DNA from: Massilicoli timonensis
GTDB taxonomy: Bacteria; Bacillota_I; Bacilli_A; Erysipelotrichales; Erysipelotrichaceae
Assembly: GCF_900199515.1 (NCBI RefSeq)
Contig: NZ_LT963434.1
Location: 1,502,180-1,534,179, forward strand
Direction of reading: 5' to 3'
DNA length: 32,000 nt
Position 1 is the first letter of the stretch; the number at the start of each line of letters is the position of its first letter. The translations under genes were made by a program, and so were the position numbers. This document shows positions 14,738 through 30,688 of this stretch, one piece after another. The notes beneath the pieces were generated by a model. It saw only the letters and a program-made list of their open reading frames with translations, ran no database searches and was not told where the DNA came from.

Positions 14738-14973
14738 AAAATACATCTTTTGCTTAGGTTTCTTTACAAAGGCATAATCATAAATCACAACAAAAACCGA
14801 GCCAACCTACACTAAAACGTCGCTTTTTTCGAGGAAAAGGCGGCGTTTTTTCATGGCCCGGTTTTGGAAAGGAGTGGTGCTGACTTTATACTAAAACGAA
14901 AGGGGGAATTTTTTTAGCTGGCCGGGCCGGGAGGTCTGGCCTTTTTTCATCTCACGAAAAAGGAGGTTAGCCA

Positions 14974-16515
14974 ATGGCAGATGAAAAAGTAAACGTGAGC
15001 CCGGAGGAAAAGAAAGCCCCGGAAGCTCCGGCCCCGTCCGGGCCGGGCGATCCGCCTGCGCCGAAGCACACCGAGGGGCCCGCTGTCCCTGGTGGAGATC
15101 AGACGGCCCCCGCTCATGTGGAGCCCGCCATGCCGGAAAAAACGGAGGGGCCCATCAAGCCAGAGCAGTCTGTTATCCCTGGTATGGGTGAGGACACTCC
15201 CGCACCGTCCAGCAAGGTGATCAACCTCTCGGACATCCAGGCCGCTGATAAGGGCGGTAAGGAGGCTTCTACTCCCACTCTGGAAAAGAAAGCGCCGGAG
15301 GCGGATAAGCCGCCGAAGCGCCGGGGCCGTCCGCCGAAGGAGCAGGCCGGGCCGACTGTGGAGAAAAAGTCGAAAGCGGCGGAGCCCCGCACAGGCCGCC
15401 CGTCTAAGGTTGACAAGGCGGCCCGTGAGGAGGCTCCGCCCTCTGTTCGGGACAAAGTGTCCAGAGGTAAGAAAGCCGACAAGGGCAAGGAAACGGGTTC
15501 CGGCGGTGCGCCTGCGTCTAAATCCGCTAAGACGGTAAAGCCGGGCAAGGCCGCTCCCGTCAAGGAGGCGGCAGTCCCGCCGCCGGAGATTAAACTGCCG
15601 CCCACGCCGGAGGTGCCGCCCCGCCCGGTGGAAGAGGGAAAAATCGTCTATTTGAAGATGTCGGAGCTCCATCCGTTCCACACGTTCCGGGAACACCCCT
15701 ACAAGGTGCAGGACGATAAGGCGATGGACGATCTGGTGGGGACGATCAAGGAACACGGCATTATGACCCCCGCCACCGTCCGCCCGGAAAAGGACGGCAA
15801 GGGCTATGAGATTATCGCGGGCCACCGCCGCCATCATGGTGGTGCGCGGGCCGGGCTGGAGGAAATGCCCTGTATCGTCCGGGAGATGACTGACCTTGAA
15901 GCTGTCCGGGAAATGCGGAACAGCAACAAACAGCGCGGCGATCCGCTCCCCAGCGAGCTGGCAAAGCTCCTGGATTTGGAGGTGGAGGCCATCAAACGCC
16001 AGGGGGCCCGCCCGAAAACGGAGAAAGAGGCCGAGGCCCTTGGTAAGCTCTCGGTGGAGATCGTTGGCAAGGATCACGACATGAACTATAAAAAGGTCAT
16101 GCGGTATATCCGGCTCAACTCCTTGGTGCCGGAGCTTCTGGACAAGGTGGACGCAAAGCAGATGGGCTTTATGCCTGCGGTGGAGATCTCGTATATCAGG
16201 CCGGAAAACCAGCGGCTGATTGCCGTTTCCATTGACGGGGAGCAGTCCTCCCCCTCGGTGGCCCAGGCGAAGCGGCTCCACGAGCTGGACAAGGAGGGCA
16301 AGCTCAACGGCGATGTGATTGACGGTATTTTGAGCGAAGAAAAAAAGGAGGATCGCGGTGTGATTATTTCGACTGCTGAACTGTCTAAGTATTTCGGCAA
16401 GGAGGTCACTCCTGCCAAAATGAAGGAGCAGATCATGGCTCTGCTGGACGAGTGGAAAGAGAAACAGCCGCCCGAACTGGCGAAGCCGGACAAGAAAAAG
16501 GACTTGGAGAAGTAA
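14974..16515 (+). CDS. ParB/Srx-like nuclease-domain protein with a long Pro/Lys/Ala-rich N-terminal extension
   Basis: 513 aa. AGGAGG is 7 nt upstream. ParB N-terminal domain motifs LHPFHTFREHPYKV and YEIIAGHRRHHG. The first ~210 aa are low complexity. Confidence 0.85.
   Translation: MADEKVNVSPEEKKAPEAPAPSGPGDPPAPKHTEGPAVPGGDQTAPAHVEPAMPEKTEGPIKPEQSVIPGMGEDTPAPSSKVINLSDIQAADKGGKEASTPTLEKKAPEADKPPKRRGRPPKEQAGPTVEKKSKAAEPRTGRPSKVDKAAREEAPPSVRDKVSRGKKADKGKETGSGGAPASKSAKTVKPGKAAPVKEAAVPPPEIKLPPTPEVPPRPVEEGKIVYLKMSELHPFHTFREHPYKVQDDKAMDDLVGTIKEHGIMTPATVRPEKDGKGYEIIAGHRRHHGGARAGLEEMPCIVREMTDLEAVREMRNSNKQRGDPLPSELAKLLDLEVEAIKRQGARPKTEKEAEALGKLSVEIVGKDHDMNYKKVMRYIRLNSLVPELLDKVDAKQMGFMPAVEISYIRPENQRLIAVSIDGEQSSPSVAQAKRLHELDKEGKLNGDVIDGILSEEKKEDRGVIISTAELSKYFGKEVTPAKMKEQIMALLDEWKEKQPPELAKPDKKKDLEK
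15447..15467. repeat. palindrome GGACA-aag-TGTCCAGAGG (copy inside the parB-like gene)
   Basis: Shares GTCCAGAGGTAAG (13 nt) with the 16540-16552 copy. The central triplet is the complement of that in the other copies. Confidence 0.6.
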
Positions 16516-16525
16516 CCCGGCCCCG

Positions 16526-16548
16526 CTTCTGGACACTTTGTCCAGAGG
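16526..16548. repeat. 23-bp element CTTCTGGACACTTTGTCCAGAGG (10-bp stem, CTT loop), copy 1
   Basis: Identical 23-mer at 17873-17895. It starts 11 nt after the parB-like stop and has no U-tract. Confidence 0.8.
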
Positions 16549-16581
16549 TAAGCGCCCCGCGCTTGGGATGGGCTCTGTGGT

Positions 16582-16724
16582 GATATATCCCCCGTCGCCG
16601 CCTATATTCCTGCACAGCCGGGAGTGGGCCGTCAAGGGTGCAACGCACCGCCGCTCGCGGCGGCTTGCCCTTGACGGTCTGCCCCGGCTGTGCTACTTCC
16701 AGCGGCGCGGCGGGGGTATATATC
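16582..16724. promoter_or_regulatory. ~145-nt nested imperfect palindrome (candidate oriT, ssDNA promoter or structured RNA)
   Basis: Concentric stems: 16648-16653/16658-16663 (6 bp), 16629-16638/16668-16677 (10 bp), 16612-16622/16683-16693 (11 bp) and ~16582-16602/~16701-16724 (bulged). An internal bubble sets TATATTCC opposite TACTTCC. Confidence 0.6.
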
Positions 16725-16810
16725 CTCCAGAGCCGCCCCCTTTCCCTGGATAGGGAAAGGGCGGGGGGATAGGGTCGAACTACCTATTATAAATATCGGA
16801 GGTGTTGAAG

Positions 16811-17152
16811 ATGAAACGATCCCTTGCTTATATTACCGCCGCATGGCGCGGCGATCCTGCGGTGGACATGGAACAGGCGGCGCATTTCTGCCGTGTGGTC
16901 TACGATGCGGGCTATTCCCCCATCTGCCCCATGCTCTATCTGCCGCTGTTCCTCAATGACGCGGTGCCGGAGGAGCACAAGAACGGCATCGACATGGGCC
17001 GTGACCTGCTCCGGCGTTCCCGTGTGCTGGTGGTGTGCGGCCATACCATCACCGAGTCCATGAAAAATGATATTGCCGTGGCCCAGCGGCTGGGGATCAC
17101 CGCTACCACCCTTGAGGGCATCCTGACCGTCAAAGGCCAGGGCCGCCGCTGA
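16811..17152 (+). CDS. DUF4406-like (nucleoside 2-deoxyribosyltransferase-like fold) protein; family assignment from memory
   Basis: 113 aa from MKRSLAYITAAWRGD. GGAGG is 8 nt upstream of the ATG at 16811. The stop lies 1 nt before the ardA ATG. Confidence 0.55.
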   Translation: MKRSLAYITAAWRGDPAVDMEQAAHFCRVVYDAGYSPICPMLYLPLFLNDAVPEEHKNGIDMGRDLLRRSRVLVVCGHTITESMKNDIAVAQRLGITATTLEGILTVKGQGRR

Positions 17153-17153
17153 T

Positions 17154-17867
17154 ATGGCGTCCCTGTTTGAAGCCTACATCACCAACCTGGGAAAATACAA
17201 CGAGGGCGAGCTGGTCGGTGAAACCTTGAAATTCCCCACTACCACGGAGGAGGTGCAGGGACTTCTGAAACGCATCGGCGTGGACGGGGTGCGGTATGAG
17301 GAATTTTTCATCACCAGCTTTGACGGTGATGTGCTGGGGCTCTATGACTATCTCACGGAATATGAAAACCTGGACGAGCTCAATCATCTGGCCTGCCTAC
17401 TCTCCGAGCTGGAGCAAAGCGACTTGGAGAAGTTTGAAGCGGTCATTGACAGCGGCGAACATACTTCCAGCGTGGCTGACCTCATCAATCTGGCGCAAAA
17501 CTTGGATTGCTACGAGTTTTATCCCGGTGTGGAGGACGATGAAACCCTGGGCCGCATTTATGTGGAGGATATGGAGGCCATTGACATTCCCGATCACCTG
17601 CTCCCTTACTTCGATTATGAAGCATACGGGCGGGACGTGCGGATCAACGAGGACGGCCACTTTGCCCCCGGCGGCTATGTGCTGAACAACGGCGGCAAAT
17701 TCATCGAGCACTACCACGGGATCGAGGACATTCCCGCCGAGCATAAGGTTTTCGCGTTCCCGCAGCTCTCGGTGCGGGAGCAGATGGCGGCCTACAAAGA
17801 AATTATTGACGGCTCCTCTCTGGAGGGCTATCGGAAGATTGCCAAAAAGGAGCACGAGGAGCGATAG
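17154..17867 (+). CDS. ardA: ArdA-family antirestriction protein
   Basis: 237 aa, highly acidic. The N-terminus AYITNLGKYNEGELVGETLKFP is typical of ArdA. Common in leading regions of Firmicutes conjugative elements. Confidence 0.85.
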   Translation: MASLFEAYITNLGKYNEGELVGETLKFPTTTEEVQGLLKRIGVDGVRYEEFFITSFDGDVLGLYDYLTEYENLDELNHLACLLSELEQSDLEKFEAVIDSGEHTSSVADLINLAQNLDCYEFYPGVEDDETLGRIYVEDMEAIDIPDHLLPYFDYEAYGRDVRINEDGHFAPGGYVLNNGGKFIEHYHGIEDIPAEHKVFAFPQLSVREQMAAYKEIIDGSSLEGYRKIAKKEHEER

Positions 17868-17872
17868 CGGCA

Positions 17873-17904
17873 CTTCTGGACACTTTGTCCAGAGGCGCTT
17901 TTTT
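17873..17904 (+). terminator. 23-bp element copy 2 plus T-run (terminator-like)
   Basis: CTTCTGGACA-ctt-TGTCCAGAGG followed by cgc and T6. It starts 6 nt after the ardA stop. Confidence 0.5.
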
Positions 17905-17993
17905 CACGGAAAGGAGGGATACGGCTGATTGATGAGGACGTTTCCAGACGTACCATAGCAGTTTCCATTAAGGCGACAAAGCTCACGGGCCGG

Positions 17994-18401
17994 GTGCTGG
18001 CCCAGGCGTGTCTGGCGGTGGGCCGGAAAATCAAGAAAGCGCACCGGGCCCGCCAGACACCCCACGGCAAACAGACGGTGCGCCAGCTCATGGGCCACGG
18101 GGCCGCCACGAACAGCATCGAGGTGGAGTCCCCAAAGGACTTTGACCGGGTGGCTCGGAAATGGAATGTGGACTATGCCTTTTATAAAACCGGGCCGGAC
18201 AAGTACCTGCTGTTTTTCAAAAGTGGGCAGGCCGATGCCATCACCGCTTGTTTTTCGGAATATTCCCGGCGCGTGATGAAGCGTTCCAAGTCCCGGCGCG
18301 TCCCGATCCGGGAACAGCTCAAACGGGCCGCCGCTGAACTGGCCCGCCAGCCGTCCCACAAGAAAGAACGTGCAAGGGAGGCGGTGCATGAGGACAGATA
18401 G
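17994..18401 (+). CDS. PcfB/DUF3801-like conjugation accessory protein (5' end probably extends to ~17925)
   Basis: 135 aa from GTG 17994. The same frame is open from 17868 and encodes family-like ...TIAVSIKATKLTGRVLAQ upstream. AAGGAGGG sits at 17911-17918 with no canonical start after it. Confidence 0.6.
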   Translation: MLAQACLAVGRKIKKAHRARQTPHGKQTVRQLMGHGAATNSIEVESPKDFDRVARKWNVDYAFYKTGPDKYLLFFKSGQADAITACFSEYSRRVMKRSKSRRVPIREQLKRAAAELARQPSHKKERAREAVHEDR

Positions 18402-19377
18402 CGTCAAGAAATATGTAATACCCAACATCCCGTACCTGTTTATCCTGTGGGCCTGCCTAAAGCTGGGGACGGCCTACCGCCTGGCTCCCGGAGCGGACTT
18501 TGCTCACAAGCTGATGGGCCTGGGCCAGAGCATCGGCCCGGCCTTTGCCGACTTTGCGCCGGGGCTCCATCCCCTTGACTGGCTCATCGGCATTGTGGGC
18601 GCGGTAGGCTTCCGCCTGCTGATCTACTTCAAAAGCAAGAACGCAAAGAAATTCAGACGGGATGAAGAATACGGGTCGGCCCGCTGGGGGACAGAAAAGG
18701 ACATCAAGCCCTTTATCGATCCAAAGTTTGAGAACAACGTCATTTTGACAAAGACGGAGTTTCTCACCATGAACACCCGGCCCAAAAATCCGGCCAACGC
18801 CCGCAATCTCAACGCCTGCATCATCGGCTCGTCCGGTTCGGGCAAAACCCGCTTCTGGCTCACTCCGCAGATTTTGCAGGCCAGCGCGGATAAAAACGGC
18901 GGATGCAGCTATGTGTGCGTCGATCCGAAAGGCGGGGTGCTCTCTCAGGTGGGAGCTTTCCTGCAACGCCGGGGATATAAGGTCAAAGTGTTCAACAGCA
19001 TAGATTTTTCAAAATCCATGCACTACAATCCGCTGTCCTACATCCACAACGAAGCGGACATCCTTAAATTTGTGGACACTCTCATAGCAAATACAAAGGG
19101 CGAGGGCAAGGAGGGCGATCCGTTTTGGACAAAGGCAGAAACGCTCCTTTATTGTGCGTTGATTGCCTATATTATCTTTGAAGCTCCTGCCGAGGATCGG
19201 AACATCAATACCCTGGTGGACATGATTTCCGGCATGGACGTGAAAGAGGATGACGAGTCCTATATGAACGCGGTGGACTATATGTTCAAGGGCCTGGAAA
19301 AGCGCAAGCCGGATTGCTTTGCCGTGAAGCAGTACAAAAAATATAAGCTGGCCAGCGGAGATGTATGCTCTAAGTGA
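18388..19377 (+). pseudogene. VirD4/TraG-type type IV coupling protein, 5' portion only (interrupted by insertion)
   Basis: N-terminal TM helices and Walker A IIGSSGSGKTRF. The family-like sequence ends at ...KQYKKYKLA, then a 7-codon foreign tail (SGDVCSK) and a stop. About 329 aa are present, against the ~600 aa I recall for this family. No 3' half occurs in any frame of the window. Confidence 0.8.
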
Positions 19378-19428
19378 CTTCTTAATCATGGTTTTTGTCA
19401 TGGTTAGTGAAGCAGTCACTTAGAGCAT
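19365..19428. repeat. 14-bp perfect inverted repeat ATGCTCTAAGTGAC / GTCACTTAGAGCAT with a 36-bp spacer
   Basis: Arms at 19365-19378 and 19415-19428. The spacer contains TCATGG twice. It is followed by TTTCATTTC and then the recombinase RBS. Confidence 0.85.
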
Positions 19429-19450
19429 TTTCATTTCAGGAGGTACAGCC

Positions 19451-21331
19451 ATGAGAAACGAGAAAATCACCCCTCTGTATGAGCGTTTGAGCCGCGACGA
19501 TGAGTTACAGGGCGAGAGCAACTCCATAAGCCATCAAAAGCAGATGTTAGAGGAGTTTGCCCGCCGGAATGGGCTGCCGAACCCCACACACTTCACCGAT
19601 GACGGCGTATCGGGAACCCGCTTTGACCGTCCCGGCTTTCTGGCGATGATGGAGGAAGTCGAGGCCGGACGGGTGGAGGCCATTGTTATCAAAGACATGA
19701 GCCGTCTGGGGCGTGACTATCTGAAAGTCGGTCAGGTCATGGAGATTTTGCGGCAGCGCGGTGTCCGGCTGATCGCCATCAACGACGGTGTGGACAGTCT
19801 GAAAGGCGACGATGATTTTACCCCGTTCCGCAATATCATGAACGAGTTTTACGCCCGTGACACCAGCCGGAAAATCCGCTCCGTGTTCAAGTCCAAAGGC
19901 ATGAGCGGCAAGCACCTGACCGGCACCGTTATTTACGGCTATCTGTGGGACGAAAAGCGGGAACACTGGCTTGTGGACGAAGAAGCCGCCGAAGTGGTAC
20001 GCCGCATCTTTTCCCTGACGATGGAGGGCTATGGCCCCTATCAAATCTCCAAGCTGCTGTCCGAGGCAAAGGTTGAAATCCCCGCTGTCCATCTGGCACG
20101 CTTTCACGAGGGCGTAAACAGGTCAAAGCCGGTCAAAGACCCCTACGGCTGGGGATCGTCCACCATTGTGAACATCCTGAAAAAGCGGGAATACCTGGGC
20201 CACACCATCAATTTCAAGACCCGCAAACACTTCAAGGACAAGAAAAGCCATTATGTTGACGAAAGCGAGTGGACGATTTTCGAGAATACCCATGAGGCCA
20301 TCATCGACCAGGAAACCTTTGACAATGTGCAGCGCATCCGGGCGAATGTCCGGCGCTACCCGGACGGCTGGGGCGAGGCCCATCCTCTGACCGGCCTGAT
20401 GTACTGCGCCGACTGCGGCGACAAGATGTATGTCCATCGCGTCAATAACGGCAAGCGTGACCCACAGTTTACTTGCAGTCAGTATAGCAAATACCCTATC
20501 GGCTCCCTTTGCCCCACACAGCACCGCATCCGGGCCGAGGCCGTCCTGACCCTGATAACCGATATGCTCCGGGCCATCGCGGAGTATTCCAAGAATGACA
20601 GGGCTGAGTTTATCCGCACTGTCCAGGAAACACAGGCCGCCCAGCAGACCGCCGACATATCCAAGAAACGGAAACGGCTGGCCGCCGCCCAAAAGCGGGC
20701 CGGGGAACTGGAAAAGCTGATTTGCAAAATCTATGAGGACAACGCCCTGGGCAAGCTGCCGGATGCCCGGTATGAAGCCCTGGACGCACAGTATGCCAAA
20801 GAGCAGGACGCTCTCCATGCGGAAATCGCGGAACTGGAAAAGGCCGTTACCGGCTATGAGCAGAGCCGGAAATCTGCGGAGAAGTTTATTGCCCTGATTG
20901 ACAAGTACGAGAATTTTGACACGCTGACAAATACCATGCTCAACGAGTTTGTGGAGAAAATCCTTGTCCATGAACGCGCCCGCAAAGGCAGCCAGGACAC
21001 CACACAGGAGGTTGAAATCTACTTCAACTTTGTGGGCCGCTATATCCCTCCTGCCTTGCAGCCGGTTCCCCTGACCCCGGAGGAACAGGAAGAACTGCGG
21101 AAGAAGGAGGAACGCAAGGACAGGCTTCACCAGAACTACTTGCGCCGCAAGGCAAACGGCAAGCAGAAGGAATGGGAAGAACGCTACAACGCCAGGCGCA
21201 AGGCCCAGGTGGAGGCAGCAAAGGCCGCGATCCGGGCCGAGGACATGGAAAAGGGCGTTTTTATCCCCGTCAGCCAGTTACCCAGGCAGGAGCCGCGCAA
21301 GGCCACCATATCGGCCAGCGCCGCAGTTTAA
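19451..21331 (+). CDS. large serine recombinase (TnpX-like; resolvase domain, recombinase domain, zinc ribbon, DUF4368-like C-terminus)
   Basis: 626 aa. Catalytic-serine motif YERLSRDD, then VIKDMSRLGRDY, then Cys cluster CADCGDKMY...FTCSQY...C, then LNEFVEKILVHE...EIYFNFVG. AGGAGG is upstream. Confidence 0.9.
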   Translation: MRNEKITPLYERLSRDDELQGESNSISHQKQMLEEFARRNGLPNPTHFTDDGVSGTRFDRPGFLAMMEEVEAGRVEAIVIKDMSRLGRDYLKVGQVMEILRQRGVRLIAINDGVDSLKGDDDFTPFRNIMNEFYARDTSRKIRSVFKSKGMSGKHLTGTVIYGYLWDEKREHWLVDEEAAEVVRRIFSLTMEGYGPYQISKLLSEAKVEIPAVHLARFHEGVNRSKPVKDPYGWGSSTIVNILKKREYLGHTINFKTRKHFKDKKSHYVDESEWTIFENTHEAIIDQETFDNVQRIRANVRRYPDGWGEAHPLTGLMYCADCGDKMYVHRVNNGKRDPQFTCSQYSKYPIGSLCPTQHRIRAEAVLTLITDMLRAIAEYSKNDRAEFIRTVQETQAAQQTADISKKRKRLAAAQKRAGELEKLICKIYEDNALGKLPDARYEALDAQYAKEQDALHAEIAELEKAVTGYEQSRKSAEKFIALIDKYENFDTLTNTMLNEFVEKILVHERARKGSQDTTQEVEIYFNFVGRYIPPALQPVPLTPEEQEELRKKEERKDRLHQNYLRRKANGKQKEWEERYNARRKAQVEAAKAAIRAEDMEKGVFIPVSQLPRQEPRKATISASAAV

Positions 21332-21357
21332 CCGTCACAGTGCAAAGGAGGACGAAC

Positions 21358-21711
21358 ATGAACAAATTGACTTACACCCGCTGCGGGGATTACTACATCC
21401 CCGACCTGAAACTTTCCGAGCAGCCGGAGGCCCCCATCGGCAAGTATGGCCGTATGCGGCAACGCTACCTGAAGGAACACCGGCCCGGCCTTTACAGCAG
21501 CTTGGCTTTGAGCGAAAAGCTGTACCCGCACCTGTTGGAGATTGACCGGGCGGCGCGAGAGCGGATAGACGCCATGCTGCCCCGCATGATGGAGGCGGCA
21601 GGCGTCACCGAGGAACTGAAAGCCCATGACCCTATGCGCTGGGTGGGGCTGATGAACACGCTGAAAGCGCAGGTGGAGGAAATTATTTTTCAAGAACTTA
21701 TATTTGTTTGA
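21358..21711 (+). CDS. tnpV: TnpV-like transposon protein
   Basis: 117 aa from MNKLTYTRCGDYYIPDL. IGKYGRMRQRYLKEHRP and HLLEIDR resemble TnpV of Tn4451/Tn4453 (from memory). AAAGGAGGA is upstream of the ATG at 21358. Confidence 0.7.
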   Translation: MNKLTYTRCGDYYIPDLKLSEQPEAPIGKYGRMRQRYLKEHRPGLYSSLALSEKLYPHLLEIDRAARERIDAMLPRMMEAAGVTEELKAHDPMRWVGLMNTLKAQVEEIIFQELIFV

Positions 21712-21714
21712 TTT

Positions 21715-21750
21715 AAGAATGAACGTCAGAAAAATCTGGCGTTCATTCTT
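21715..21750. terminator. bidirectional terminator hairpin between tnpV and the convergent araC-family gene
   Basis: AAGAATGAACGTCAG-aaaaat-CTGGCGTTCATTCTT (15 bp including one G-U pair). The right arm overlaps the last codons of the AraC gene. Confidence 0.7.
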
Positions 21751-22714
21751 TGTTTATCAATTTTCTATACTCTCGTGGTAATAATCCAGTAACACGCTGG
21801 AATTGTTTTGCAAAACTTTCAGACCTATCATATCCAACCGCTTGTGCGATCTCTGCGATGCTTAATTCTGTTCCCATAAGGAGGTGCTGGGCCTGTCCAA
21901 TCCTTTTCTGCAAAATATAATCATAGAGCGTACAGCCGAAACATTCCTTAAAGGCAGCTTTTAACTTCGTCTGCCCCATAAAAGAAATGCGACACAACCT
22001 CTCAATCGGAACAGAAAAGGCATAATGGTTATCCAGATAAGCCGCAACTGCGGAAAGGTTCTCCTGATCCTGCTCTGTCAGATGCAGCTTCTTTTTCTTC
22101 TCCTGGTTGCTTTTAGCCCGCTCCATAATTAAAGAAACCGCTTCTAATATTTTGCCTTCATAAAACATCTTTGCCGTAAGACCTGTTCCCCGGTATCCTT
22201 CGATTTGCTTTAGCAGAGCAATCAATTCAGGGAAATCCGTTCCGATCTGCATTTTACGAAATGCTTCGCTGGGATCAATGTATTCTCCTGGAAATTTCTG
22301 CTGCAAATACCGTTGATAAAACTCCGGCATGATCGTAAAACTGATACTCTGCAAAGGAATATTCTTATGATAAATCGCCTGATACACCCTGCCTGCCTGC
22401 CCGATTTGTGCTTGTAAACTGTTAGGAGAAAGCTGGCGGTAAGGATGAAATTCTTCACCTGACACGGAGGTGTAATAAGTAACAGACAAAAATTCCGGTT
22501 CTGGACACTCTAACATAATGTCATCAAGAAAAAGAAAATCTCTGATGGTGATTTCAAACATATTTTCATAAAAATATACCCAAAAATGCCCTTGCCCCTT
22601 ATCTGCCTGTAAAGTGTAACAGGTAAATTCATTATAAGGCTGCCTGTGTTCGTTATCTAAAAAGAATCCTCCATCAGAAAGCATGGAATGATACATTTCT
22701 TTTATATGTTTCAT
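21743..22714 (-). CDS. AraC/XylS-family transcriptional regulator
   Basis: 323 aa from the ATG at 22714, with AGGTGA 6 nt upstream. The C-terminal double HTH runs ...IERLCRISFMGQTKLKAAFKE...SIAEIAQAVGYDRSESFAKQFQRVTGLLPREYRK. The N-terminal ~200 aa is a putative ligand domain. Confidence 0.85.
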   Translation of the reverse strand: MKHIKEMYHSMLSDGGFFLDNEHRQPYNEFTCYTLQADKGQGHFWVYFYENMFEITIRDFLFLDDIMLECPEPEFLSVTYYTSVSGEEFHPYRQLSPNSLQAQIGQAGRVYQAIYHKNIPLQSISFTIMPEFYQRYLQQKFPGEYIDPSEAFRKMQIGTDFPELIALLKQIEGYRGTGLTAKMFYEGKILEAVSLIMERAKSNQEKKKKLHLTEQDQENLSAVAAYLDNHYAFSVPIERLCRISFMGQTKLKAAFKECFGCTLYDYILQKRIGQAQHLLMGTELSIAEIAQAVGYDRSESFAKQFQRVTGLLPREYRKLINKE

Positions 22715-22729
22715 TGTTGTCACCTATAA

Positions 22730-22766
22730 ATACGCCGTTTGGACGAACTTATACGCCGATACGACG
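22730..22766. promoter_or_regulatory. direct repeats ATACGCCG (22730, 22751) and ATACGACG (22759); candidate AraC-type sites
   Basis: Two perfect 8-mers are spaced 21 bp apart start to start, about two helical turns. They lie in the divergent araC/ecfT intergenic region. Confidence 0.3.
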
Positions 22767-22821
22767 CTCCTTTCCAAAATCCATTGTGAAAGCAAAAGTC
22801 TCGTACTATACTTAGAAACGG

Positions 22822-22843
22822 TGATTAGTTAGAGCTAACCACT
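22822..22843. promoter_or_regulatory. DtxR/IdeR-box-like palindrome tgatta-GTTAG-ag-CTAAC-cact
   Basis: The core GTTAG..CTAAC matches the core of the remembered DtxR consensus TTAGGTTAGCCTAACCTAA, but with a 2-nt centre instead of 1 nt. It lies between the candidate promoter TTGTGA-17-TATACT (22784-22812) and the ecfT RBS. Confidence 0.3.
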
Positions 22844-22894
22844 TGATATTGTAGCACATACCTGTTGTTTTCACAAGGTAAAGGAGGTGAAAAT

Positions 22895-23617
22895 ATGCGG
22901 ATGAGTTTTAAGGCATCAATGCCGGACCCCCGCATTTTAATTATACAGATTGTCGTGGTGGCGGTATTGGCATCGGTATTTCGGAATCTGCTCGCATTAT
23001 TTCTTTTAGTGCTGATTGTAGATTTCCTGCTGTTACTTCAATGCGGGTGGGCGGTTTTCTGGAAAAACCTTCTGTCCTATGCAGCTATGCTGCTGATACT
23101 GTTTGCGCTGCAAGAGATATACATTCCGATTGTTTCGGATTTGTTTCCGCTTTTCCTTTTGTTGATGGCGAGGCTATATCCGGCGTATTTGGCAGTGAGG
23201 GTTCTGATTGAAAAAGCGCCAATGGATGAACTGCTTTTTTCATTGGAAATCTGGCGTTTTCCAAAATTAGTGTTGATCCCGTTGGCAGTTATTTATCGTT
23301 ACATACCAACGATATTGAAAGAGATCGGATACATTCGGGAAAGCCTTAAAATGCGGAATCTCCATTCCTCTATGTGGGATAAGGTATGCCATCCAATGCA
23401 AAATGTAGAAAACTTTTTTGTCCCACTTTTATATCGCAGTGAAAAAATTTCGGAAGAATTGTCTGCCGCTTCAATCTGCAAAGGGCTTAGCACAAAAAGA
23501 AAACGAACGTGCTGCACGAAAGTGAAACTAGGGGTAACAGATCTTATCTACTTGCTTTGTGTTGCGCTCCTTGCGGCAGGTTTAGCATTTATCAACTATC
23601 ATGTGATTTTACTTTAG
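22895..23617 (+). CDS. ecfT: ECF transporter transmembrane (T) component, CbiQ/EcfT family
   Basis: 240 aa from the ATG at 22895, with AAGGAGG upstream. About five TM helices and a cytoplasmic coupling-helix-like segment EIGYIRESLKMRNL. Confidence 0.65.
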   Translation: MRMSFKASMPDPRILIIQIVVVAVLASVFRNLLALFLLVLIVDFLLLLQCGWAVFWKNLLSYAAMLLILFALQEIYIPIVSDLFPLFLLLMARLYPAYLAVRVLIEKAPMDELLFSLEIWRFPKLVLIPLAVIYRYIPTILKEIGYIRESLKMRNLHSSMWDKVCHPMQNVENFFVPLLYRSEKISEELSAASICKGLSTKRKRTCCTKVKLGVTDLIYLLCVALLAAGLAFINYHVILL

Positions 23618-23636
23618 ATGGGAAGGAGGCATGAGA

Positions 23637-25118
23637 ATGAACCAGCCTGTCATTGAATTTTCAAACTTTAGTTTTACCTATCATAATGCTGACTCAGAAA
23701 GTCTGACAGGGATTGATTTAATCATTCGTAAGGGTGAATTTATCCTTTTGACAGGACATAGCGGCTGTGGCAAGACCACATTGACCCGCTGCATAAATGG
23801 GCTTATCCCGGATTTTTTCGAGGGGGACCTTTCAGGGAAATGCCGCGTTTGCGGTATGGATATTGCAGAACATGAAACAGGTGAGTTTTCACCGTTGGTC
23901 GGTTCGGTATTTCAAGACCCACGTTCTCAGTTTTTTACACTTCATGTCAAAACGGAAATTCCGTTTCCAAGCGAAAACCTGGGAACACCTATGGATAAAA
24001 TGCAGGAGCAATATGAAAAAGCGGTGGACGTTTTACAAATTCAGGGCTTACTTGGAAAGAGCATTTTCGACCTTTCCAGCGGCGAAAAGCAGAAGGTAGC
24101 CATTGCGTCAATTTATATGGTGGGAGTCGGAATTTATGTCTTGGACGAACCATCGGCCAATCTGGATTCGGAGGGTACAGAGCAGCTTCGTCAAGTATTA
24201 AAATCCCTCAAAGAGCAGGGTAACACCATCATCATTTCGGAGCATAAGCTCTACTACCTCAACGGGCTTACGGATCGTGTTCTGATTATGAAGGACGGAA
24301 AAATTGATAAAGAGATGGAAGGCAGGGTTTTCGACCGGCAGACAGCAGAATGGTTTACAAGGCATGGCCTGCGAAAATCCGATCTCGCACTTATTACACC
24401 AAAATCCTACCATCCTGTTAAGGGAGATGTCTCCATTCAAATAAAGAATTTGTCCTTTGGTTATCCGGGAAAACCGCTGTTATGGCACGATGTTACCTTT
24501 TCCGCTCATGGTGGAGAGATCATCGGTATCATTGGAAAGAACGGAGCCGGAAAAAGCACATTGATCCGAACACTTATGGGGCTTGAAAAGCCAAAGACCG
24601 GGAAAATTTCTATCAACGGAAGTTACTCCGGCAAGCAGCAGCGGCGAAAAAAATCTTTCTATGTCATGCAGGATGTAGATTATCAGCTATTTGCTCCGAA
24701 TGTATTGGAGGAAATGCTGATGGGTACGAAAAAGACAGAGATAGAAAAAGAACAGGCCATTTGTAAGCTGGAGAATTTGGGATTGGGAAAATTCCTGAAA
24801 AGGCACCCCACAGCTTTATCCGGTGGACAAAAGCAGCGGCTTTCTATTGCATTGGCAGAAATGAACCGTTTACCGCTTCTCTACCTTGATGAACCGACCA
24901 GCGGACTGGACGCAGAGAATATGAAGATTGTCCAGACTGAAATAAAAAAGCTGGCTGAAGGTGGCGCGTGTGTGTTTGTCATTACCCACGATTATGAATT
25001 TGCCGCAGAGCTTTTTTCTTCCCTTCTTCTTTTACAGGAGGATGGTACGATACAGTATCTTTCCCCTGATAAGTACAAGCCGGAAAACCTGGCTCAATAT
25101 TTTCAAATTTCATTCTAA
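23637..25118 (+). CDS. ECF-type duplicated ATPase (fused A-A' components)
   Basis: Two NBDs. The first has GHSGCGKTT, LSSGEKQKVAIA and IYVLDEPSANLD. The second has GKNGAGKST, LSGGQKQRLSIA and LLYLDEPTSGLD. ATG 23637 has better SD spacing than ATG 23631. Confidence 0.9.
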   Translation: MNQPVIEFSNFSFTYHNADSESLTGIDLIIRKGEFILLTGHSGCGKTTLTRCINGLIPDFFEGDLSGKCRVCGMDIAEHETGEFSPLVGSVFQDPRSQFFTLHVKTEIPFPSENLGTPMDKMQEQYEKAVDVLQIQGLLGKSIFDLSSGEKQKVAIASIYMVGVGIYVLDEPSANLDSEGTEQLRQVLKSLKEQGNTIIISEHKLYYLNGLTDRVLIMKDGKIDKEMEGRVFDRQTAEWFTRHGLRKSDLALITPKSYHPVKGDVSIQIKNLSFGYPGKPLLWHDVTFSAHGGEIIGIIGKNGAGKSTLIRTLMGLEKPKTGKISINGSYSGKQQRRKKSFYVMQDVDYQLFAPNVLEEMLMGTKKTEIEKEQAICKLENLGLGKFLKRHPTALSGGQKQRLSIALAEMNRLPLLYLDEPTSGLDAENMKIVQTEIKKLAEGGACVFVITHDYEFAAELFSSLLLLQEDGTIQYLSPDKYKPENLAQYFQISF

Positions 25119-25135
25119 AAAAGGAGTGTGTCGCT

Positions 25136-25735
25136 ATGAGAAATCAAACAAAAGAAAGTCGTAGATTGAAGGATTTAATCCGAATTGGCGTTTTCAGTGC
25201 GCTGTGGGTTGTGATTGGCTTCCTGGTGGCCTTTACGATTGGATTTTTCCCACCAATTTTATTGGTTCTTCCCTGTGTCCTCGGAATTATCGGTGGGATT
25301 GTCTATGTTGTCATGTTATCAAAGCTGACAATCCCAGGTGGTATTTTAATCAGTTCATTTCTGCTGGGTATCTGCCTGTTTACGATGGCTCCTTATGGCA
25401 TGATGTTCTTCTGCACTGTGGCTGGCGGTGTGATCGGAGAAATCCTTTATAGTGTTTTGGGGAGGCGTACAACCAAAGCAACGATGGTAGGTTCCTCCTT
25501 CGCTTTGGTAGGGCTGGCTCTCGGTGAATACATACCGTTCATCTGGATGCAGGACGCCTATCGTTCCATGCTGGTGAATGATGATTCCGGCCTTCTGGAA
25601 ATTGCTGAATGGTGCATGAATATCGTTTCTGTTCCGGTCATGATTGTGCTGTGCGTGGCAACGGTTACTCTCACCTGTCTGGGTGTGCTTTGGGGAAATA
25701 AAATCGTAAAAAAACGCCTTTCCAATGCGGAATAG
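25136..25735 (+). CDS. MptD/Trep_Strep-family putative ECF substrate-capture (S) component
   Basis: 199 aa, six hydrophobic helices and a basic C-terminal tail (KIVKKRLSNAE). The N-terminus LKDLIRIGVFSALWVVIGF is typical of the family (from memory). AAGGAG is 9 nt upstream. Confidence 0.55.
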   Translation: MRNQTKESRRLKDLIRIGVFSALWVVIGFLVAFTIGFFPPILLVLPCVLGIIGGIVYVVMLSKLTIPGGILISSFLLGICLFTMAPYGMMFFCTVAGGVIGEILYSVLGRRTTKATMVGSSFALVGLALGEYIPFIWMQDAYRSMLVNDDSGLLEIAEWCMNIVSVPVMIVLCVATVTLTCLGVLWGNKIVKKRLSNAE

Positions 25736-25757
25736 GCGGTAAAAGGAGTTGAAAATT

Positions 25758-27572
25758 ATGAGCAAAGAAAAAAAGCAAAAGACAGGCATCCCGCGTTTGC
25801 TGGAGATGGCCGGACAACGAAAAACTCTGATGATTGTCGGTGCTTCGCTTTCAACGATTGCGGCTTTGTTTCAGTTAGCTCCCTATCTGGCAGTTTATAA
25901 GGTTATGACGGAGCTTCTGCGTAATGCCGCAGATATTAGTCAGGTGGACACTTCCTATATGACTTTTTGGGCTTTATTCGGAATTGTCGGGTTGGTGATC
26001 TGCTATGTGTTTATGTATGTGGGTGGCATGATCGGTCATATCGAGGCTTATCGTACCCTCTATGGAATCCGTGTAAAGCTGTCCGAACATATCAGCGGAT
26101 TGCCTTTGGGGTGGTTCAGCCGCAACTCTATCGGTAAGGTAAAGCAGATTGCGGAGCAGGATGTGGAACAGATTGAACTTTTCATTGCCCATCAGTTCCC
26201 GGATATGATTAGTACCATTGCTGTGATAGTATTTATGGTCATTGTGATGTTCAGCCTGAATATCTGGCTGGCCCTTGCCTGCATCCTACCGATTATTGTC
26301 GGGTTTGTTGTGCAGTTCTCCTTTATGTTCGGCTCTAAGGCCAAAGAAGGACTCAAGGAATACTACGATGCAATGGAAAATATCAACACATCATCGGTTC
26401 AATATGTGCGGGGTATGCCCTCAATCAAAATTTTTGGTCAGACTGTGCGCTCTTTCCGAAAATTCTATGATGATATTATTGCCTACCGTGATATGACAAC
26501 GAAATATGCGGATAACTATGAACCTTGTTATGTCCTGTTCCGTGTATTTGTACTTTCACTTTCCGCATTTATCATCCCTGTGGGTATGCTGTTTCTTACC
26601 GGCAATCCGCAGAATATGGCATTTGCTATGACGCTGCTGTTCGTGTTAATCTTCGCGCCGGGAATTGCTACACCTGTGTTTAAGTTTAATAATTTTGGTT
26701 CCAGCTTCAACAATATCAATGAAGGGGTACGGCGCATTGACGAAGTGTTAAGCACAAGTGAGGTAACAGAGCCGCAGAACAGCAAAAAGCCCGCCGGATA
26801 TACCATTGAATTTCACGATGTATCCTTTTCTTATGAGGATGGTCCAAAGGTGTTGGATCATGTGAGTTTTACCGCTGAGCAGGGAAAGATAACAGCGCTT
26901 GTAGGACCTTCCGGATCTGGTAAATCAACGATTGCACAGCTTATTCCACGGTTTTGGGATGTACAGGAAGGCAGCATAACGATTGGCGGCATAGACATCC
27001 GGGATATGAGAACGGAAGATTTAATGAATACCATGTCTTTCGTATTTCAGGACTGTTTCCTGTTCTCTGATACGCTCTATAACAACATTGCTGTGGGAAA
27101 ACCCGGTGCTACAAGAGAAGAAGTTTATGCAGCGGCAAGGGCAGCGCAATGCCATGAGTTCATTGAGAAGCTGCCCCAGGGTTACGATACCTTAATCGGG
27201 GAAGGCGGTGTTTATCTATCAGGAGGCGAGGAACAACGTGTTTCTGTGGCAAGAGCGATCTTGAAAAATGCTCCGATCCTGATTCTTGATGAAGCAACCG
27301 CCTATGCTGATCCAGAGAATGAATTTCAAATGCAGTTGGCATTACAAGAACTGATTAAAAACAAGACAGTATTGATTATTGCTCACCGGCTGATGACCAT
27401 TCGGAACGCCAATAAGATTATGGTCATCAAACATGGAAAAATCGAAGAAACAGGAACCCATGACCAACTTCTGGCAAATGAAAGAACCTATCATAAGATG
27501 TGGGCGGCCTACACAGCTTCGTCCGATTGGGAACTGAAAAAAGGAACAGATAAGGAGGTGGCAAAGGCATGA
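25758..27572 (+). CDS. ABC transporter permease/ATP-binding protein (type IV exporter fold), heterodimer subunit 1
   Basis: 604 aa. Six-helix TMD plus an NBD with GPSGSGKST, LSGGEEQRVSVARA, ILILDEATAYAD and IAHRL. The stop overlaps the next start (ATGA at 27569-27572). Confidence 0.9.
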   Translation: MSKEKKQKTGIPRLLEMAGQRKTLMIVGASLSTIAALFQLAPYLAVYKVMTELLRNAADISQVDTSYMTFWALFGIVGLVICYVFMYVGGMIGHIEAYRTLYGIRVKLSEHISGLPLGWFSRNSIGKVKQIAEQDVEQIELFIAHQFPDMISTIAVIVFMVIVMFSLNIWLALACILPIIVGFVVQFSFMFGSKAKEGLKEYYDAMENINTSSVQYVRGMPSIKIFGQTVRSFRKFYDDIIAYRDMTTKYADNYEPCYVLFRVFVLSLSAFIIPVGMLFLTGNPQNMAFAMTLLFVLIFAPGIATPVFKFNNFGSSFNNINEGVRRIDEVLSTSEVTEPQNSKKPAGYTIEFHDVSFSYEDGPKVLDHVSFTAEQGKITALVGPSGSGKSTIAQLIPRFWDVQEGSITIGGIDIRDMRTEDLMNTMSFVFQDCFLFSDTLYNNIAVGKPGATREEVYAAARAAQCHEFIEKLPQGYDTLIGEGGVYLSGGEEQRVSVARAILKNAPILILDEATAYADPENEFQMQLALQELIKNKTVLIIAHRLMTIRNANKIMVIKHGKIEETGTHDQLLANERTYHKMWAAYTASSDWELKKGTDKEVAKA

Positions 27573-29308: not shown

Positions 29309-29319
29309 GAGAAATATTT

Positions 29320-29691
29320 ATGAAACTTCATGCGTCCGGGGAGGACTACCTGGAAACCATCCTTGTTCTCCAAAAGAAACTCGGTATGGTACGCTCCGTA
29401 GATGTGGCCCGGCACATGGAGGTGTCAAAACCCAGCGTGTGCCATGCAGTGGCTACCTTGCGGGACGGCGGCTTTCTCACAATGGACGAAGATCACTTTC
29501 TTCATCTGACCGATGTGGGCCGCGAGGTTGCCGAAAAAATCTATGAGCGCCATTGCTTTTTTACCGAGCAGCTTATCGCCGCAGGCGTTGACCCAAAAAC
29601 TGCGGAGGCCGATGCCTGCCGGATTGAACACATCATCAGCGATGAAAGCTTTTCACGGTTGAAAGAGGCAGCCGCACAAGACCAAGAATAA
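29320..29691 (+). CDS. DtxR/MntR-family metal-dependent transcriptional regulator (two-domain form, no SH3-like domain)
   Basis: 123 aa from the ATG at 29320, with AGGAG 8 nt upstream. SGEDYLETILVL, wHTH VDVARHMEVSKPSVCHAVATL, and dimerization/metal region ERHCFFTEQL...ACRIEHIIS. Confidence 0.8.
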   Translation: MKLHASGEDYLETILVLQKKLGMVRSVDVARHMEVSKPSVCHAVATLRDGGFLTMDEDHFLHLTDVGREVAEKIYERHCFFTEQLIAAGVDPKTAEADACRIEHIISDESFSRLKEAAAQDQE

Positions 29692-30127
29692 ACCAAATAA
29701 GACAAGCTATCCTGCCCCGCTAAACGGGGAAAGAAAAAAACCGTTGCAGGGCAGACAGCTTCGTGCGCCTATAATGGATTTTCAGGGTACTGCGGCGGTT
29801 TTGAGTAACATCAAGGCCGCCGTTCCTTATGCCCTCGACAAAGGAGTGACGCCTATACGCTGACACGGCGGCTTTAGGAGGGAGCCGCCATGAAGCACAC
29901 TGACCGCCGACAAATTCAGACGATATTTGAACTATCGTCAAAAAAAGCCCGGCCACCGAACAGCCCCCGTCCGGCAGCCAGTGCGAAAATTGTCACAATG
30001 TAACTGAATACCGTATTTTTTGCGCTCGAATAGCTTTCTGCTGTCCGGGCGTTTTTTCATACCTGTGGGGCCGGAACATCGGGCCAACATGGCCCGAACC
30101 TTGCCCCCGGTGCCGTTCCCCGCCGCC

Positions 30128-30160: not shown

Positions 30161-30171
30161 AGGAAAGGCAG

Positions 30172-30674: not shown

Positions 30675-30688
30675 CAGGAGGTAAGCCT

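What the first reader, a model, noticed from the sequence alone, without database searches (positions are those of the whole stretch)
18388..21331. The conjugative coupling-protein gene is split by a serine-recombinase element, a possible excision-dependent switch for ICE transfer
The T4CP ORF has intact TM helices and a Walker A motif but ends at ...KQYKKYKLA plus a 7-codon foreign tail. By my recollection of homologs, which continue ...KLAAGKT..., this is roughly the midpoint of the protein. A TnpX-like large serine recombinase gene starts 74 nt later. Large serine recombinases excise precisely, so excision could restore an intact T4CP. The arrangement resembles recombinase-controlled gene reconstitution as in the skin/sigK element. 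The alternative is that the ICE is simply inactivated. The missing 3' half is nowhere in the remaining 12.6 kb, so the insert is at least that long or the distal part has been deleted.
Basis: partly seen in the sequence, partly recalled or inferred. Interest (0 to 1): 0.7.

Follow-up and report, generated by a model that had tools for sequence, protein, structure and literature searches.

The report
Mobilizable element inserted in conjugation gene
A mobile DNA element that cannot transfer on its own has inserted into the coupling-protein gene of a larger conjugative element; this arrangement is already described (Tn6104 of C. difficile), and the proposed "transfer switch" is a published but untested hypothesis.

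Summary
ORF 18388-19377 is the N-terminal 324 residues of a CD1115-family VirD4-like coupling protein, whose intact relatives are 574-601 aa. Homology to intact alleles stops at the GG at 19357-19358. It is followed by 5 foreign codons, not 7, and then by a 626-aa TnpX-like large serine recombinase and TnpV.

The insert is the left 12.6 kb of an 18-25 kb Tn6104-type integrative mobilizable element (IME). The IME has its own MobA/MobL relaxase and replication genes but no coupling protein or secretion system. That length explains why the 3' half is not in the window.

The site is a preferred attB. 146 of 238 left ends of this element family from metagenomes and species genomes lie at this same codon. 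Copies at least 99.8% identical to the window's sit in three other coupling-protein alleles and at two non-T4CP sites.

On one sibling contig, both halves flank the element, and removing it in silico at GG rebuilds a 587-aa gene.

Insertion in the VirD4 gene, PCR-proven Tn6104 excision and the excision-restores-transfer idea are all published (Brouwer 2011; Coluzzi 2017; Guédon 2017). I rate it a new member of a known kind. A regulated switch remains unproven, and the window's own right junction was not seen.

The parts
14753..19358 (+). Left arm of a Tn1549/CTn4-type ICE, running from its left junction with the chromosome to the IME insertion point.
   Evidence: Homology to ICE-free relatives ends at 14755. 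Homology to intact ICEs L007/L008 starts at 14753 and ends at 19358. Gene order is ParB, DUF7768, ArdA, DUF3801, T4CP, as in L007/L288.
14974..16515 (+). ParB-like protein of the ICE.
   Evidence: Pfam ParB_N, E = 1e-17.
17154..17867 (+). ArdA antirestriction protein of the ICE.
   Evidence: Pfam ArdA, E = 5e-44.
17994..18401 (+). DUF3801 protein. It immediately precedes the T4CP gene, as in intact ICEs.
   Evidence: Pfam DUF3801, E = 3e-25. Same position in L007, L008 and L288.
18388..19377 (+). Truncated coupling-protein (VirD4-like, CD1115 family) gene: 324 native residues, then DVCSK and a stop codon supplied by the IME.
   Evidence: It is 100% identical to the N-half of the intact alleles P0001 and P0003.
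19357..19358 (+). GG crossover dinucleotide of attL.
   Evidence: attB (L288, L007) is AGC[GG]CAAGACC. attL is AGC[GG]AGATGTA. attR (L003, L005, L006) is TTTCG[GG]CAAGACC. GG precedes 231 of 238 left ends.
19359..32000 (+). Left 12.6 kb of a Tn6104-type integrative mobilizable element. It continues beyond the window.
   Evidence: Copies at least 99.8% identical elsewhere (L268-L276). The full structure comes from L001/L249 and from L005/L278.
19365..19427 (+). Perfect 15-bp inverted repeat (19365-19379 and 19413-19427) that forms a long hairpin between the truncated T4CP stop and the recombinase RBS. Its outer arm is also the left terminal repeat of the element.
   Evidence: Fold energy -38.2 kcal/mol, z = -6.5. 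Conserved in 65 distinct left ends. The role is inferred: recombinase binding arm and/or a transcriptional insulator.
19451..21331 (+). 626-aa TnpX-like large serine recombinase, with the catalytic-serine motif YERLSRDD near its N-terminus.
   Evidence: Pfam Resolvase, Recombinase, Zn_ribbon_recom and DUF4368.
21358..21711 (+). TnpV homolog.
   Evidence: Pfam TnpV, E = 4e-43, full length.
21743..29691 (.). Low-GC cargo cassette: AraC regulator (minus strand), ECF transporter (CbiQ, double ATPase, S component), two ABC exporters, and a DtxR/MntR-like repressor.
   Evidence: Pfam hits on the gene calls of L001/L268. GC is 40-47%, against 55-60% for the core.
30172..32000 (+). Array of sigma-70 region-4-like small proteins. 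The fourth runs off the window end. Tn6104 has the same kind of array.
   Evidence: Pfam Sigma70_r4_2. Brouwer 2011 describes three tandem sigma-like ORFs in Tn6104.

Best explanation
The window shows the left junction of a Tn6104-family integrative mobilizable element (IME).

**What is shown**
- The IME's TnpX-like large serine recombinase has integrated it at a preferred attB, a GG inside the Gly324 codon of the VirD4-like coupling-protein gene of a Tn1549/CTn4-type ICE.
- The IME encodes its own relaxase (MobA/MobL), a replisome organizer with a DnaC-like loader, TnpV, TnpW and a toxin-antitoxin pair. It has no coupling protein and no secretion system, so it must borrow those of an ICE.
- While integrated, it leaves the ICE with a coupling protein that lacks Walker B and the C-terminal domain, which should be non-functional.

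**What is inferred**
- Serine-recombinase excision at the 2-bp crossover is conservative. Excision should therefore rebuild the intact gene and release a circular IME that the repaired ICE can mobilize.
- After transfer, the IME would re-enter the same site in whatever ICE of this family it finds.
- Joining the element's ends creates a TTGACA-17 nt-TATGCT promoter 81 nt upstream of the recombinase gene. The integrated form lacks the -35 box. Recombinase expression is therefore probably highest on the circle, favouring re-integration, as shown for Tn4451.
- Whether excision is triggered by ICE induction, which would make it a true switch, is not shown.
For: - **Truncation and breakpoint:**
- **att sites and 2-bp GG core:**
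- **Preferred site:** 146 of 238 left ends lie at the same T4CP codon, 86 of 119 in metagenome contigs and 60 of 119 in GTDB species genomes. They span many T4CP alleles (KKYKLAAG, RKFKMAAG, KVFKQAAG and others). Among the 120 closest T4CP clusters, 34 diverge exactly after ...LASG.
- **Recent mobility:** the window's IME is 99.8-99.97% identical over 9.9 kb to copies in three other T4CP alleles (L274-L276), in a yesN-like regulator gene (L268, L270) and at another site (L269).
- **Both halves flank the IME on one contig:** in-silico excision gives a 587-aa ORF aligned end to end with intact T4CPs.
- **Empty-site alleles of the same ICE lineage exist:** P0001 and P0003 are 100% identical in the N-half, and L288 is intact.
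- **IME gene content lacks T4CP and T4SS genes:**
- **Circle-specific promoter:** read directly from the sequence.
- **Literature:** Tn6104 has the same gene set, a 2-bp repeat, a circular form and a regenerated target site shown by PCR (PMC3158075). Tn6104 is listed as inserted at an 'internal site of traG (VirD4 CP)' (PMC5704250). TnpX alone suffices for excision and insertion (Lyras 2004, cited).
Against: - The window's own right junction and 3' T4CP half were not seen. The window's exact proteins are not on record in the look-up collection.
- The near-identical contig I could walk along (L001/L249/L268) proved to be a copy at a different site.
- No attP junction was found in JGI metagenome contigs, in IMG/VR, or among 238 left ends. 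There is thus no direct evidence here of ongoing excision.
- Tn6103, which carries Tn6104, did not transfer detectably (PMC3158075).
- A strong hairpin followed by a U-rich tract sits between the T4CP stop and the recombinase gene. It may block read-through from the ICE operon, which argues against simple coupling of excision to ICE induction.
- Some copies carry a frameshifted recombinase (L274) or nested insertions (L001). Part of the population is therefore decaying.
Confidence: 0.85

Rival explanations
1. Dead-end inactivation. The IME landed in the coupling-protein gene and the ICE is now a decaying, non-transferable remnant. The site is preferred only because hitting an ICE gene costs the host nothing. 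Excision is too rare, or the 3' part is lost, so no functional reconstitution ever happens.
For: [quoted passage not shown]
- Hosted IMEs in S. suis did not excise, and many defective derivatives exist (PMC7168690).
- No attP was found.
- Some T4CP clusters diverge at the same codon into unrelated sequence, for example P0075 fused to NlpC/P60. This suggests deletions that start at the site.
- The window's 3' half was not seen.
Against: - Near-identical IME copies at no fewer than six different junctions show the element is currently mobile.
- Empty-site alleles of the same ICE lineage coexist.
- The recombinase ORF in the window is intact.
- On contig_196 the two T4CP halves are both intact and in frame.
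- Tn6104 excises and regenerates its target.
Confidence: 0.3
2. A true regulated switch. IME excision is induced by the same signal that induces ICE conjugation, so the IME gates ICE transfer in the way skin gates sigK.
For: - The IME is always co-oriented with the T4CP gene, with the recombinase gene 73 nt downstream of the truncated ORF.
- In a sister lineage the T4CP N-half reads in frame into the recombinase, giving 971-976 aa ORFs in L272 and L273 (P0011 and P0076). That implies transcription and translation can enter from the ICE operon.
- The IME needs the T4CP it disrupts.
- The hypothesis was set out by Coluzzi 2017.
Against: - No expression or excision data exist.
- A -38 kcal/mol hairpin with a U-tract lies between the T4CP stop and the recombinase in this lineage.
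- Co-orientation is forced by the asymmetric GG core, so it is not independent evidence.
- 39% of left ends are at non-T4CP sites, where no such logic applies.
Confidence: 0.25
3. Assembly artefact or chimera. The junction between the T4CP gene and the recombinase element would be a mis-join across a repeated element.
For: The IME is a multi-copy repeat in gut metagenomes, and short-read contigs often break at its ends.
Against: The same junction, at the same GG, recurs in 146 independent contigs and genomes with many different T4CP alleles. It also occurs in long-read contigs where both halves flank the element.
Confidence: 0.02

Closest known systems
Tn6104 of Clostridioides difficile R20291, inside the ICE Tn6103 (Brouwer et al. 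2011, PMC3158075; Guédon et al. 2017, PMC5704250)
   Same: - TnpX-like large serine recombinase at the left end, followed by TnpV.
- A regulator and ABC-transporter cargo.
- Tandem sigma-like ORFs.
- MobA/MobL relaxase, toxin-antitoxin pair, replisome organizer and DnaC-like loader.
- Inserted at an internal site of the ICE's VirD4 coupling-protein gene.
- 2-bp repeat at the junctions.
- 15.6 kb, against 18-25 kb here.
   Different: - Different host (a gut Lachnospiraceae-like chromosome) and a different host ICE (CD1115/CTn4-type T4CP, versus the CTn5-like Tn6103).
- Different cargo: ECF and ABC transporters with a DtxR-like repressor, instead of a two-component system and lantibiotic-type ABC transporter.
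- Sequence identity to Tn6104 itself could not be measured, because R20291 is not in the available collections.
Tn4451/Tn4453 (C. perfringens / C. difficile), the prototype TnpX elements
   Same: - Large serine recombinase with a DUF4368 tail, TnpV and TnpW.
- 2-bp crossover.
- A circular intermediate whose joint forms a promoter for the recombinase. Here the predicted joint promoter is TTGACA-17-TATGCT.
- Mobilizable, not conjugative.
   Different: - Tn4451 is 6.3 kb and uses a GA core and many target sites. This family uses GG and strongly prefers one codon of a T4CP gene.
- The relaxase here is MobA/MobL rather than TnpZ (Mob/Pre type).
Streptococcal IMEs integrated in traG, maff2 or snf2 of Tn5252/Tn1549-type ICEs (Coluzzi 2017, PMC5357655; Libante 2019, PMC7168690)
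   Same: - Serine-integrase IMEs that disrupt ICE conjugation genes, including the coupling-protein gene.
- Replisome-organizer genes.
- The published hypothesis that excision restores conjugation.
   Different: Different bacterial class, different integrase clades and different positions within traG.
Recombinase-controlled gene reconstitution: skin/sigK (B. subtilis), the fdxN element with XisF (Anabaena), and comK-phage 'active lysogeny' (Listeria)
   Same: A large serine recombinase element interrupts a gene, and precise excision rebuilds it. The best NCBIfam hit of the recombinase is XisF, but it scores below the cut-off.
   Different: In those systems excision is developmentally or environmentally programmed, and this has been shown experimentally. 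Here no trigger is known, and the interrupted gene belongs to another mobile element rather than to the host.

Membership tests
VirD4-like coupling protein, CD1115 family (NF045973) | Full-length match to the equivalog profile above the cut-off of 250 bits. | tested here: not met
   The window ORF scores 224 bits and covers profile positions 1-208 of 442. The intact P0033 scores 533 bits over 1-442. The window ORF is therefore a truncated member of the family.
VirD4-like coupling protein, CD1115 family (NF045973) | N-terminal TM segments with Walker A and Walker B NTPase motifs. | tested here: not met
   Walker A (GSSGSGKT) is present. Walker B (hhhhDE: VLWDEAAN in P0033) lies in the absent half. 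The TM helices were not formally predicted.
Large serine recombinase, TnpX/TndX type | Resolvase catalytic domain, Recombinase domain, zinc ribbon and the C-terminal DUF4368 extension. | tested here: met
   All four Pfam domains are above their gathering scores. The N-terminal motif YERLSRDD carries the candidate catalytic serine.
Large serine recombinase, TnpX/TndX type | Conservative recombination at a 2-bp core shared by attB, attL and attR. | tested here: met
   Only GG is shared by attB, attL and attR. In-silico excision is in frame.
Tn6104-type IME | Gene set: serine recombinase, TnpV, cargo, tandem sigma-like ORFs, MobA/MobL relaxase, TA pair, replisome organizer, DnaC-like loader; no T4CP or T4SS genes. 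| tested here: met
   The window holds the left part. The remainder comes from 99.9-100% identical copies L001/L249. The set matches the description in PMC3158075 and the Table in PMC5704250.
Tn6104-type IME | Integration at an internal site of an ICE VirD4 gene. | tested here: met
Tn6104-type IME | Sequence similarity to Tn6104 proteins (R20291 ORFs 1744-1764). | not testable with these tools
   The R20291 sequence is not held in any accessible collection. Only the published description was compared.
Tn6104-type IME | Experimental excision to a circle with a regenerated target site. | not testable with these tools
   Shown by PCR for Tn6104. Here no attP was found in silico. Mobility is inferred from identical copies at several sites.
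Programmed gene-reconstitution switch (skin/sigK type) | Both gene halves flank the element in the same genome. | tested here: inconclusive
   Met on sibling contig_196. The window's own right junction is unreachable.
Programmed gene-reconstitution switch (skin/sigK type) | Excision triggered by a defined signal and required for the function of the rebuilt gene. | not testable with these tools
   Only a published hypothesis exists.

The most novel reading that the evidence does not exclude
The IME acts as a gatekeeper of its helper ICE. It holds the ICE's coupling-protein gene hostage, and its excision is coupled to ICE induction by transcription, and in the sister lineage translation, running from the T4CP N-half into the recombinase gene. 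No ICE transfer could then occur without simultaneous release of the IME. A promoter formed only on the circle would drive re-integration into the same codon in the recipient. Because 61% of sampled copies across more than 100 gut Clostridia species sit at this codon, this would be a widespread control layer on conjugation in the gut microbiome.
Probability: 0.2. Interest if true: 0.6.

Novelty: new member of a known kind. Interest (0 to 1): 0.3.

Why it matters
Elements of this family carry transporter and resistance-type cargo. By sitting in the coupling-protein gene, they decide whether a large class of Tn1549/CTn4-type ICEs can transfer at all. That bears on predicting gene flow, including vanB-type and other resistance ICEs, from genome sequence. 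An ICE annotated as 'T4CP pseudogene, defective' may become transfer-proficient after a single excision event. The biology itself is already described and hypothesised. What is still missing is an experiment, not a discovery.

Tried and rejected
1. **Walking off the window's right end.** L001 and L249 matched the window at 99.99-100%. They led to a right flank in a response-regulator gene, which I first read as a rearrangement that had removed the T4CP 3' half. One search showed that the left flank of that contig is the other half of the same yesN-like regulator. It is therefore a separate, simple insertion of the same IME in another genome, and it says nothing about the window. I dropped the rearrangement idea.

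2. **Exact look-ups of the window's own proteins.** The T4CP fragment (329 and 335 aa), the recombinase and the 194-aa ORF are not on record. The source contig could not be identified.

3. **attP search.** The exact junction pattern was not found in JGI metagenome contigs or in IMG/VR. None of the 238 left ends has an IME right end upstream.

4. **Covariation test of the left-end hairpin.** I abandoned this. The 5' arm was fixed by the search pattern, and the 65 variants are too similar to be informative.

5. **First in-silico excision.** It was off by one base and gave a frameshift. It was corrected after re-reading attR as TTTCG[GG]CAAG.

6. **Two tail types as convergent recombinases.** I considered that the D[VI]CSK* and VVCSK.. 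tails might be unrelated recombinases converging on one site. Their left ends are homologous, differing by TGA versus CGA, and L272 shows about 75% nucleotide identity. They are lineages of one family.
Full report
**1. Observation**

ORF 18388-19377 encodes 329 aa. It matches Pfam T4SS-DNA_transf only at profile positions 47-196 of 468. It matches the NCBIfam equivalog 'VirD4-like conjugal transfer protein, CD1115 family' only at positions 1-208 of 442 (224 bits, cut-off 250). The intact homolog P0033 covers positions 1-442 with 533 bits.

A search of 5.8 billion proteins returned intact relatives of 574-601 aa that read ...KQYKKYKLASG-KTAKSILISCG.... The window reads ...KLASG-DVCSK-stop. Ser-Gly therefore belong to the coupling protein, and the foreign tail is five codons, not seven.

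Walker A (GSSGSGKT) is retained. Walker B (VLWDEAAN) and the TraG-D_C domain lie in the missing half.

Nucleotide homology to the closest intact ICE (L288, 96.8%) and to L007/L008 (88.5%) stops exactly at 19358.

Seventy-three nucleotides after the stop codon begins a 626-aa protein with Resolvase, Recombinase, Zn_ribbon_recom and DUF4368 domains. A full-length TnpV follows it. tblastn with intact T4CPs finds no 3' half anywhere in the window.

**2. What the insert is**

Exact-protein look-ups retrieved contigs that carry the same element. Its conserved backbone, in order:
- recombinase
- TnpV
- a variable low-GC cargo cassette that always ends with a DtxR/MntR-like repressor
- four small sigma-70-region-4-like proteins
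- DUF3847
- a MobA/MobL relaxase
- a ParE/RelB pair (in some copies)
- a Cys-rich protein
- a phage-type replisome organizer
- a DnaC/IstB-like loader
- TnpW
- a 121-aa ORF

The right end reads ...CTTGACAACTCGTTTCG-GG.

No copy encodes a coupling protein or any secretion-system gene. The element is therefore an integrative mobilizable element (IME), not a conjugative one.

It is 18,085 bp on ERZ21549408 contig_196. It is about 25.3 kb in the copies that are 99.99-100% identical to the window (L001, L249). Those copies carry a 6.7-kb nested insertion of three tyrosine recombinases plus an rve/AAA_22 transposon.

The window holds only the left 12.6 kb. The absence of the T4CP 3' half from the window is therefore expected.

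**3. att sites**

- attB in intact ICEs: AAGCTGGC(C/A)AGC-GG-CAAGACCGC (L288, L007).
- attL in the window: AAGCTGGCCAGC-GG-AGATGTATGCTC.
- attR in L003, L005 and L006: CTCGTTTCG-GG-CAAGACC (or the equivalent in other T4CP alleles).

The only identity shared by all three is GG, at window positions 19357-19358. This is the 2-bp crossover typical of serine recombinases.

The two element ends carry imperfect inverted repeats 12-30 bp from the core: GATTAAAAAGTCCTTGA and CTAAGTGACTTCTTAATC (read directly from the sequence).

**4. The site is a preferred target**

Among the 120 closest T4CP clusters:
- 81 read through the site.
- 13 end in D[VI]CSK*. One of these clusters alone has 1,273 member sequences.
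- About 15 carry a homologous second tail (VVCSKRLLNQ..) that runs into a sister-lineage recombinase.
- 6 diverge at the same codon into other sequences (P0024, P0030, P0075, P0081, P0082, P0097).

Of 238 informative left ends:
- 146 (61%) lie at this codon of a T4CP gene, across many alleles (KKYKLAAG, KKYKLASG, RKYKLAAG, RKFKMAAG, KVFKQAAG and others).
- 231 are preceded by GG.

The hosts span Oscillospiraceae, Lachnospiraceae, Erysipelotrichaceae and others.

**5. The element is currently mobile**

The window's first 9.9 kb of IME is 99.8-99.97% identical to copies at other junctions:
- in three other T4CP alleles so divergent that megablast does not align them to the window's T4CP (L274, L275, L276)
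- in a yesN-like response-regulator gene of a Fusicatenibacter-like chromosome (L268, L270; right flank in L249/L250)
- at a further site (L269)

Empty-site alleles of the window's own ICE lineage also exist. P0001 and P0003 are 100% identical over the N-half, and L288 is intact.

**6. Would excision repair the gene?**

On contig_196 the N-half (325 aa) and the C-half (221-aa ORF) flank the IME. Deleting the 18,085 bp at GG gives a 587-aa ORF. It aligns over residues 4-567 with residues 2-569 of an intact 601-aa T4CP.

Joining the window's N-half to L288 downstream of GG likewise reads straight through the junction in frame (...KLASG-KTAKSILISCG...) and reproduces P0003, the product of L288's T4CP gene.

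For the described relative Tn6104, PCR showed a circular form and a regenerated empty target with a 2-bp repeat (PMC3158075). TnpX alone is sufficient for excision and insertion of Tn4451/3 (Lyras et al. 2004, as cited in PMC5704250).

The window's own right junction could not be examined. The window's exact T4CP fragment and recombinase are not on record.

One caution: I at first followed the identical IME copy in ENA s2.ctg000235l/tig00043873 to a non-T4CP right flank. One search then showed that copy to be a simple insertion elsewhere. It carries no information about this locus.

**7. Mechanistic inferences (not shown experimentally)**

- *The IME needs a helper's coupling protein and pore.* Sitting inside the T4CP gene guarantees co-residence with a helper. 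It also makes mobilization by that helper dependent on prior excision.
- *A circle-specific promoter.* Joining right and left ends gives TTGACA-ACTCGTTTCGGGAGATG-TATGCT, a 10/12 sigma-70-type promoter with a 17-nt spacer, 81 nt upstream of the recombinase ATG. In the integrated state the -35 position reads ATATAA (indices corrected by hand). This parallels the circle-specific tnpX promoter of Tn4451/Tn4453 (Lyras & Rood 2000, reference seen).
- *A conserved hairpin.* A perfect 15-bp inverted repeat (19365-19379 and 19413-19427) folds into a -38 kcal/mol hairpin (z = -6.5) followed by UUUUCAUUU. It is conserved across 65 distinct left ends. It could insulate the recombinase gene from read-through out of the T4CP operon. 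A transcript from the joint promoter would start inside the 5' arm and so escape the hairpin. This is speculation.
- *A different arrangement in the sister lineage.* There the stop codon is replaced (TGA to CGA) and the T4CP N-half reads in frame into the recombinase, giving 971-976 aa ORFs in L272 and L273. That is the opposite arrangement and would favour coupling to ICE expression.

**8. Comparison with what is known**

The arrangement is that of Tn6104 in C. difficile R20291:
- a 15.6-kb element with a TnpX-related recombinase, TnpV, a regulator, an ABC transporter, three sigma-like ORFs, MobA/MobL, a TA pair and a phage-type replication protein
- inserted in the conjugation module of the ICE Tn6103
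- tabulated by Guédon et al. 2017 as integrated at an 'internal site of traG (VirD4 CP)', with 'replisome organizer, DnaC, TA'

Serine-integrase IMEs inside traG, maff2 or snf2 of streptococcal ICEs are catalogued in Coluzzi 2017 and Libante 2019.

To my searches it has not been tested.

Evidence against easy reversibility also exists. Tn6103 transfer was undetectable, and hosted S. suis IMEs did not excise in the laboratory.

**9. Verdict**

The finding is a correct reading of a real and biologically coherent structure. It is a further member of a described kind, and its proposed function is an existing, still untested hypothesis.

What this analysis adds:
- the exact GG core
- the in-silico repair
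- a census showing how dominant this one codon is as a target across gut Clostridia
- the predicted circle-specific promoter

Scores: interest 0.3; novelty, new member of a known kind.

Noticed in passing
L272:528-3458 (-), L273:1564-4479 (-); proteins P0011, P0076: In a sister lineage of the element, the left end has CGA instead of the TGA stop. The T4CP N-half is then read in frame straight into the recombinase, giving predicted 971-976 aa fusion ORFs.
   Followed up: partly
Proteins P0075, P0024, P0030, P0081/P0082, P0097: Other T4CP clusters diverge at exactly the same Gly codon into unrelated sequence. P0075 continues into the ICE's own NlpC/P60 hydrolase, which suggests a recombinase-mediated deletion from attB to a pseudo-site. 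The others may be further elements.
   Followed up: no
L001:11250-18000 (= L249:3050-9900), about 400 bp beyond the window end in window-equivalent coordinates: The near-identical IME copy carries a 6.7-kb nested insertion between DUF3847 and the relaxase gene. It holds three adjacent tyrosine recombinases, DUF6618, AAA_22, an rve transposase and DUF6431, and it is bounded by 90-bp inverted repeats. Whether the window's copy has it is unknown.
   Followed up: partly
L268:7130-8094 and L249:15285-16055: The same IME (99.97% identical) splits a yesN-like response regulator into a receiver half of 256 aa and an AraC-HTH half of 304 aa in a Fusicatenibacter-like chromosome. The junction ORF is present on 31 contigs, so the insertion is fixed in a lineage.
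   Followed up: yes
window 19359-19450 joined to the IME right end (L249:15230-15311): Joining the element ends would create a TTGACA-17 nt-TATGCT promoter 81 nt upstream of the recombinase ATG. The integrated form has ATATAA at the -35 position.
   Followed up: partly
window 14753-14755: The left junction of the ICE with the chromosome lies 18 nt after the stop of a DUF5662 gene. ICE-free relatives carry a convergent HisKA/OmpR-type two-component pair there.
   Followed up: partly
window 21743-29691 versus L005:346-8541 and L002:602-8540: Cargo cassettes differ between otherwise near-identical IMEs. Here the cargo is an ECF transporter plus two ABC exporters. L005 has ABC exporters, MntP and FeoAB. 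L002 has TetR, an ECF transporter and ABC exporters. All end in the same DtxR/MntR-like repressor. Cargo GC is 40-47%, against 55-60% for the backbone. This suggests swapping of metal-related cassettes.
   Followed up: no
window 2054-7606: Four tandem ABC-2-type permease paralogues have a 1394-nt period, and their maximal ORFs overlap by 150 nt. A related chromosome (L258) shows three copies, so copy number varies.
   Followed up: no
window 19451-21331: The best NCBIfam hit of the recombinase is XisF, the fdxN-element excision recombinase of Anabaena heterocysts. It scores 115 bits, far below the 375-bit cut-off, so this is a family resemblance only.
   Followed up: no
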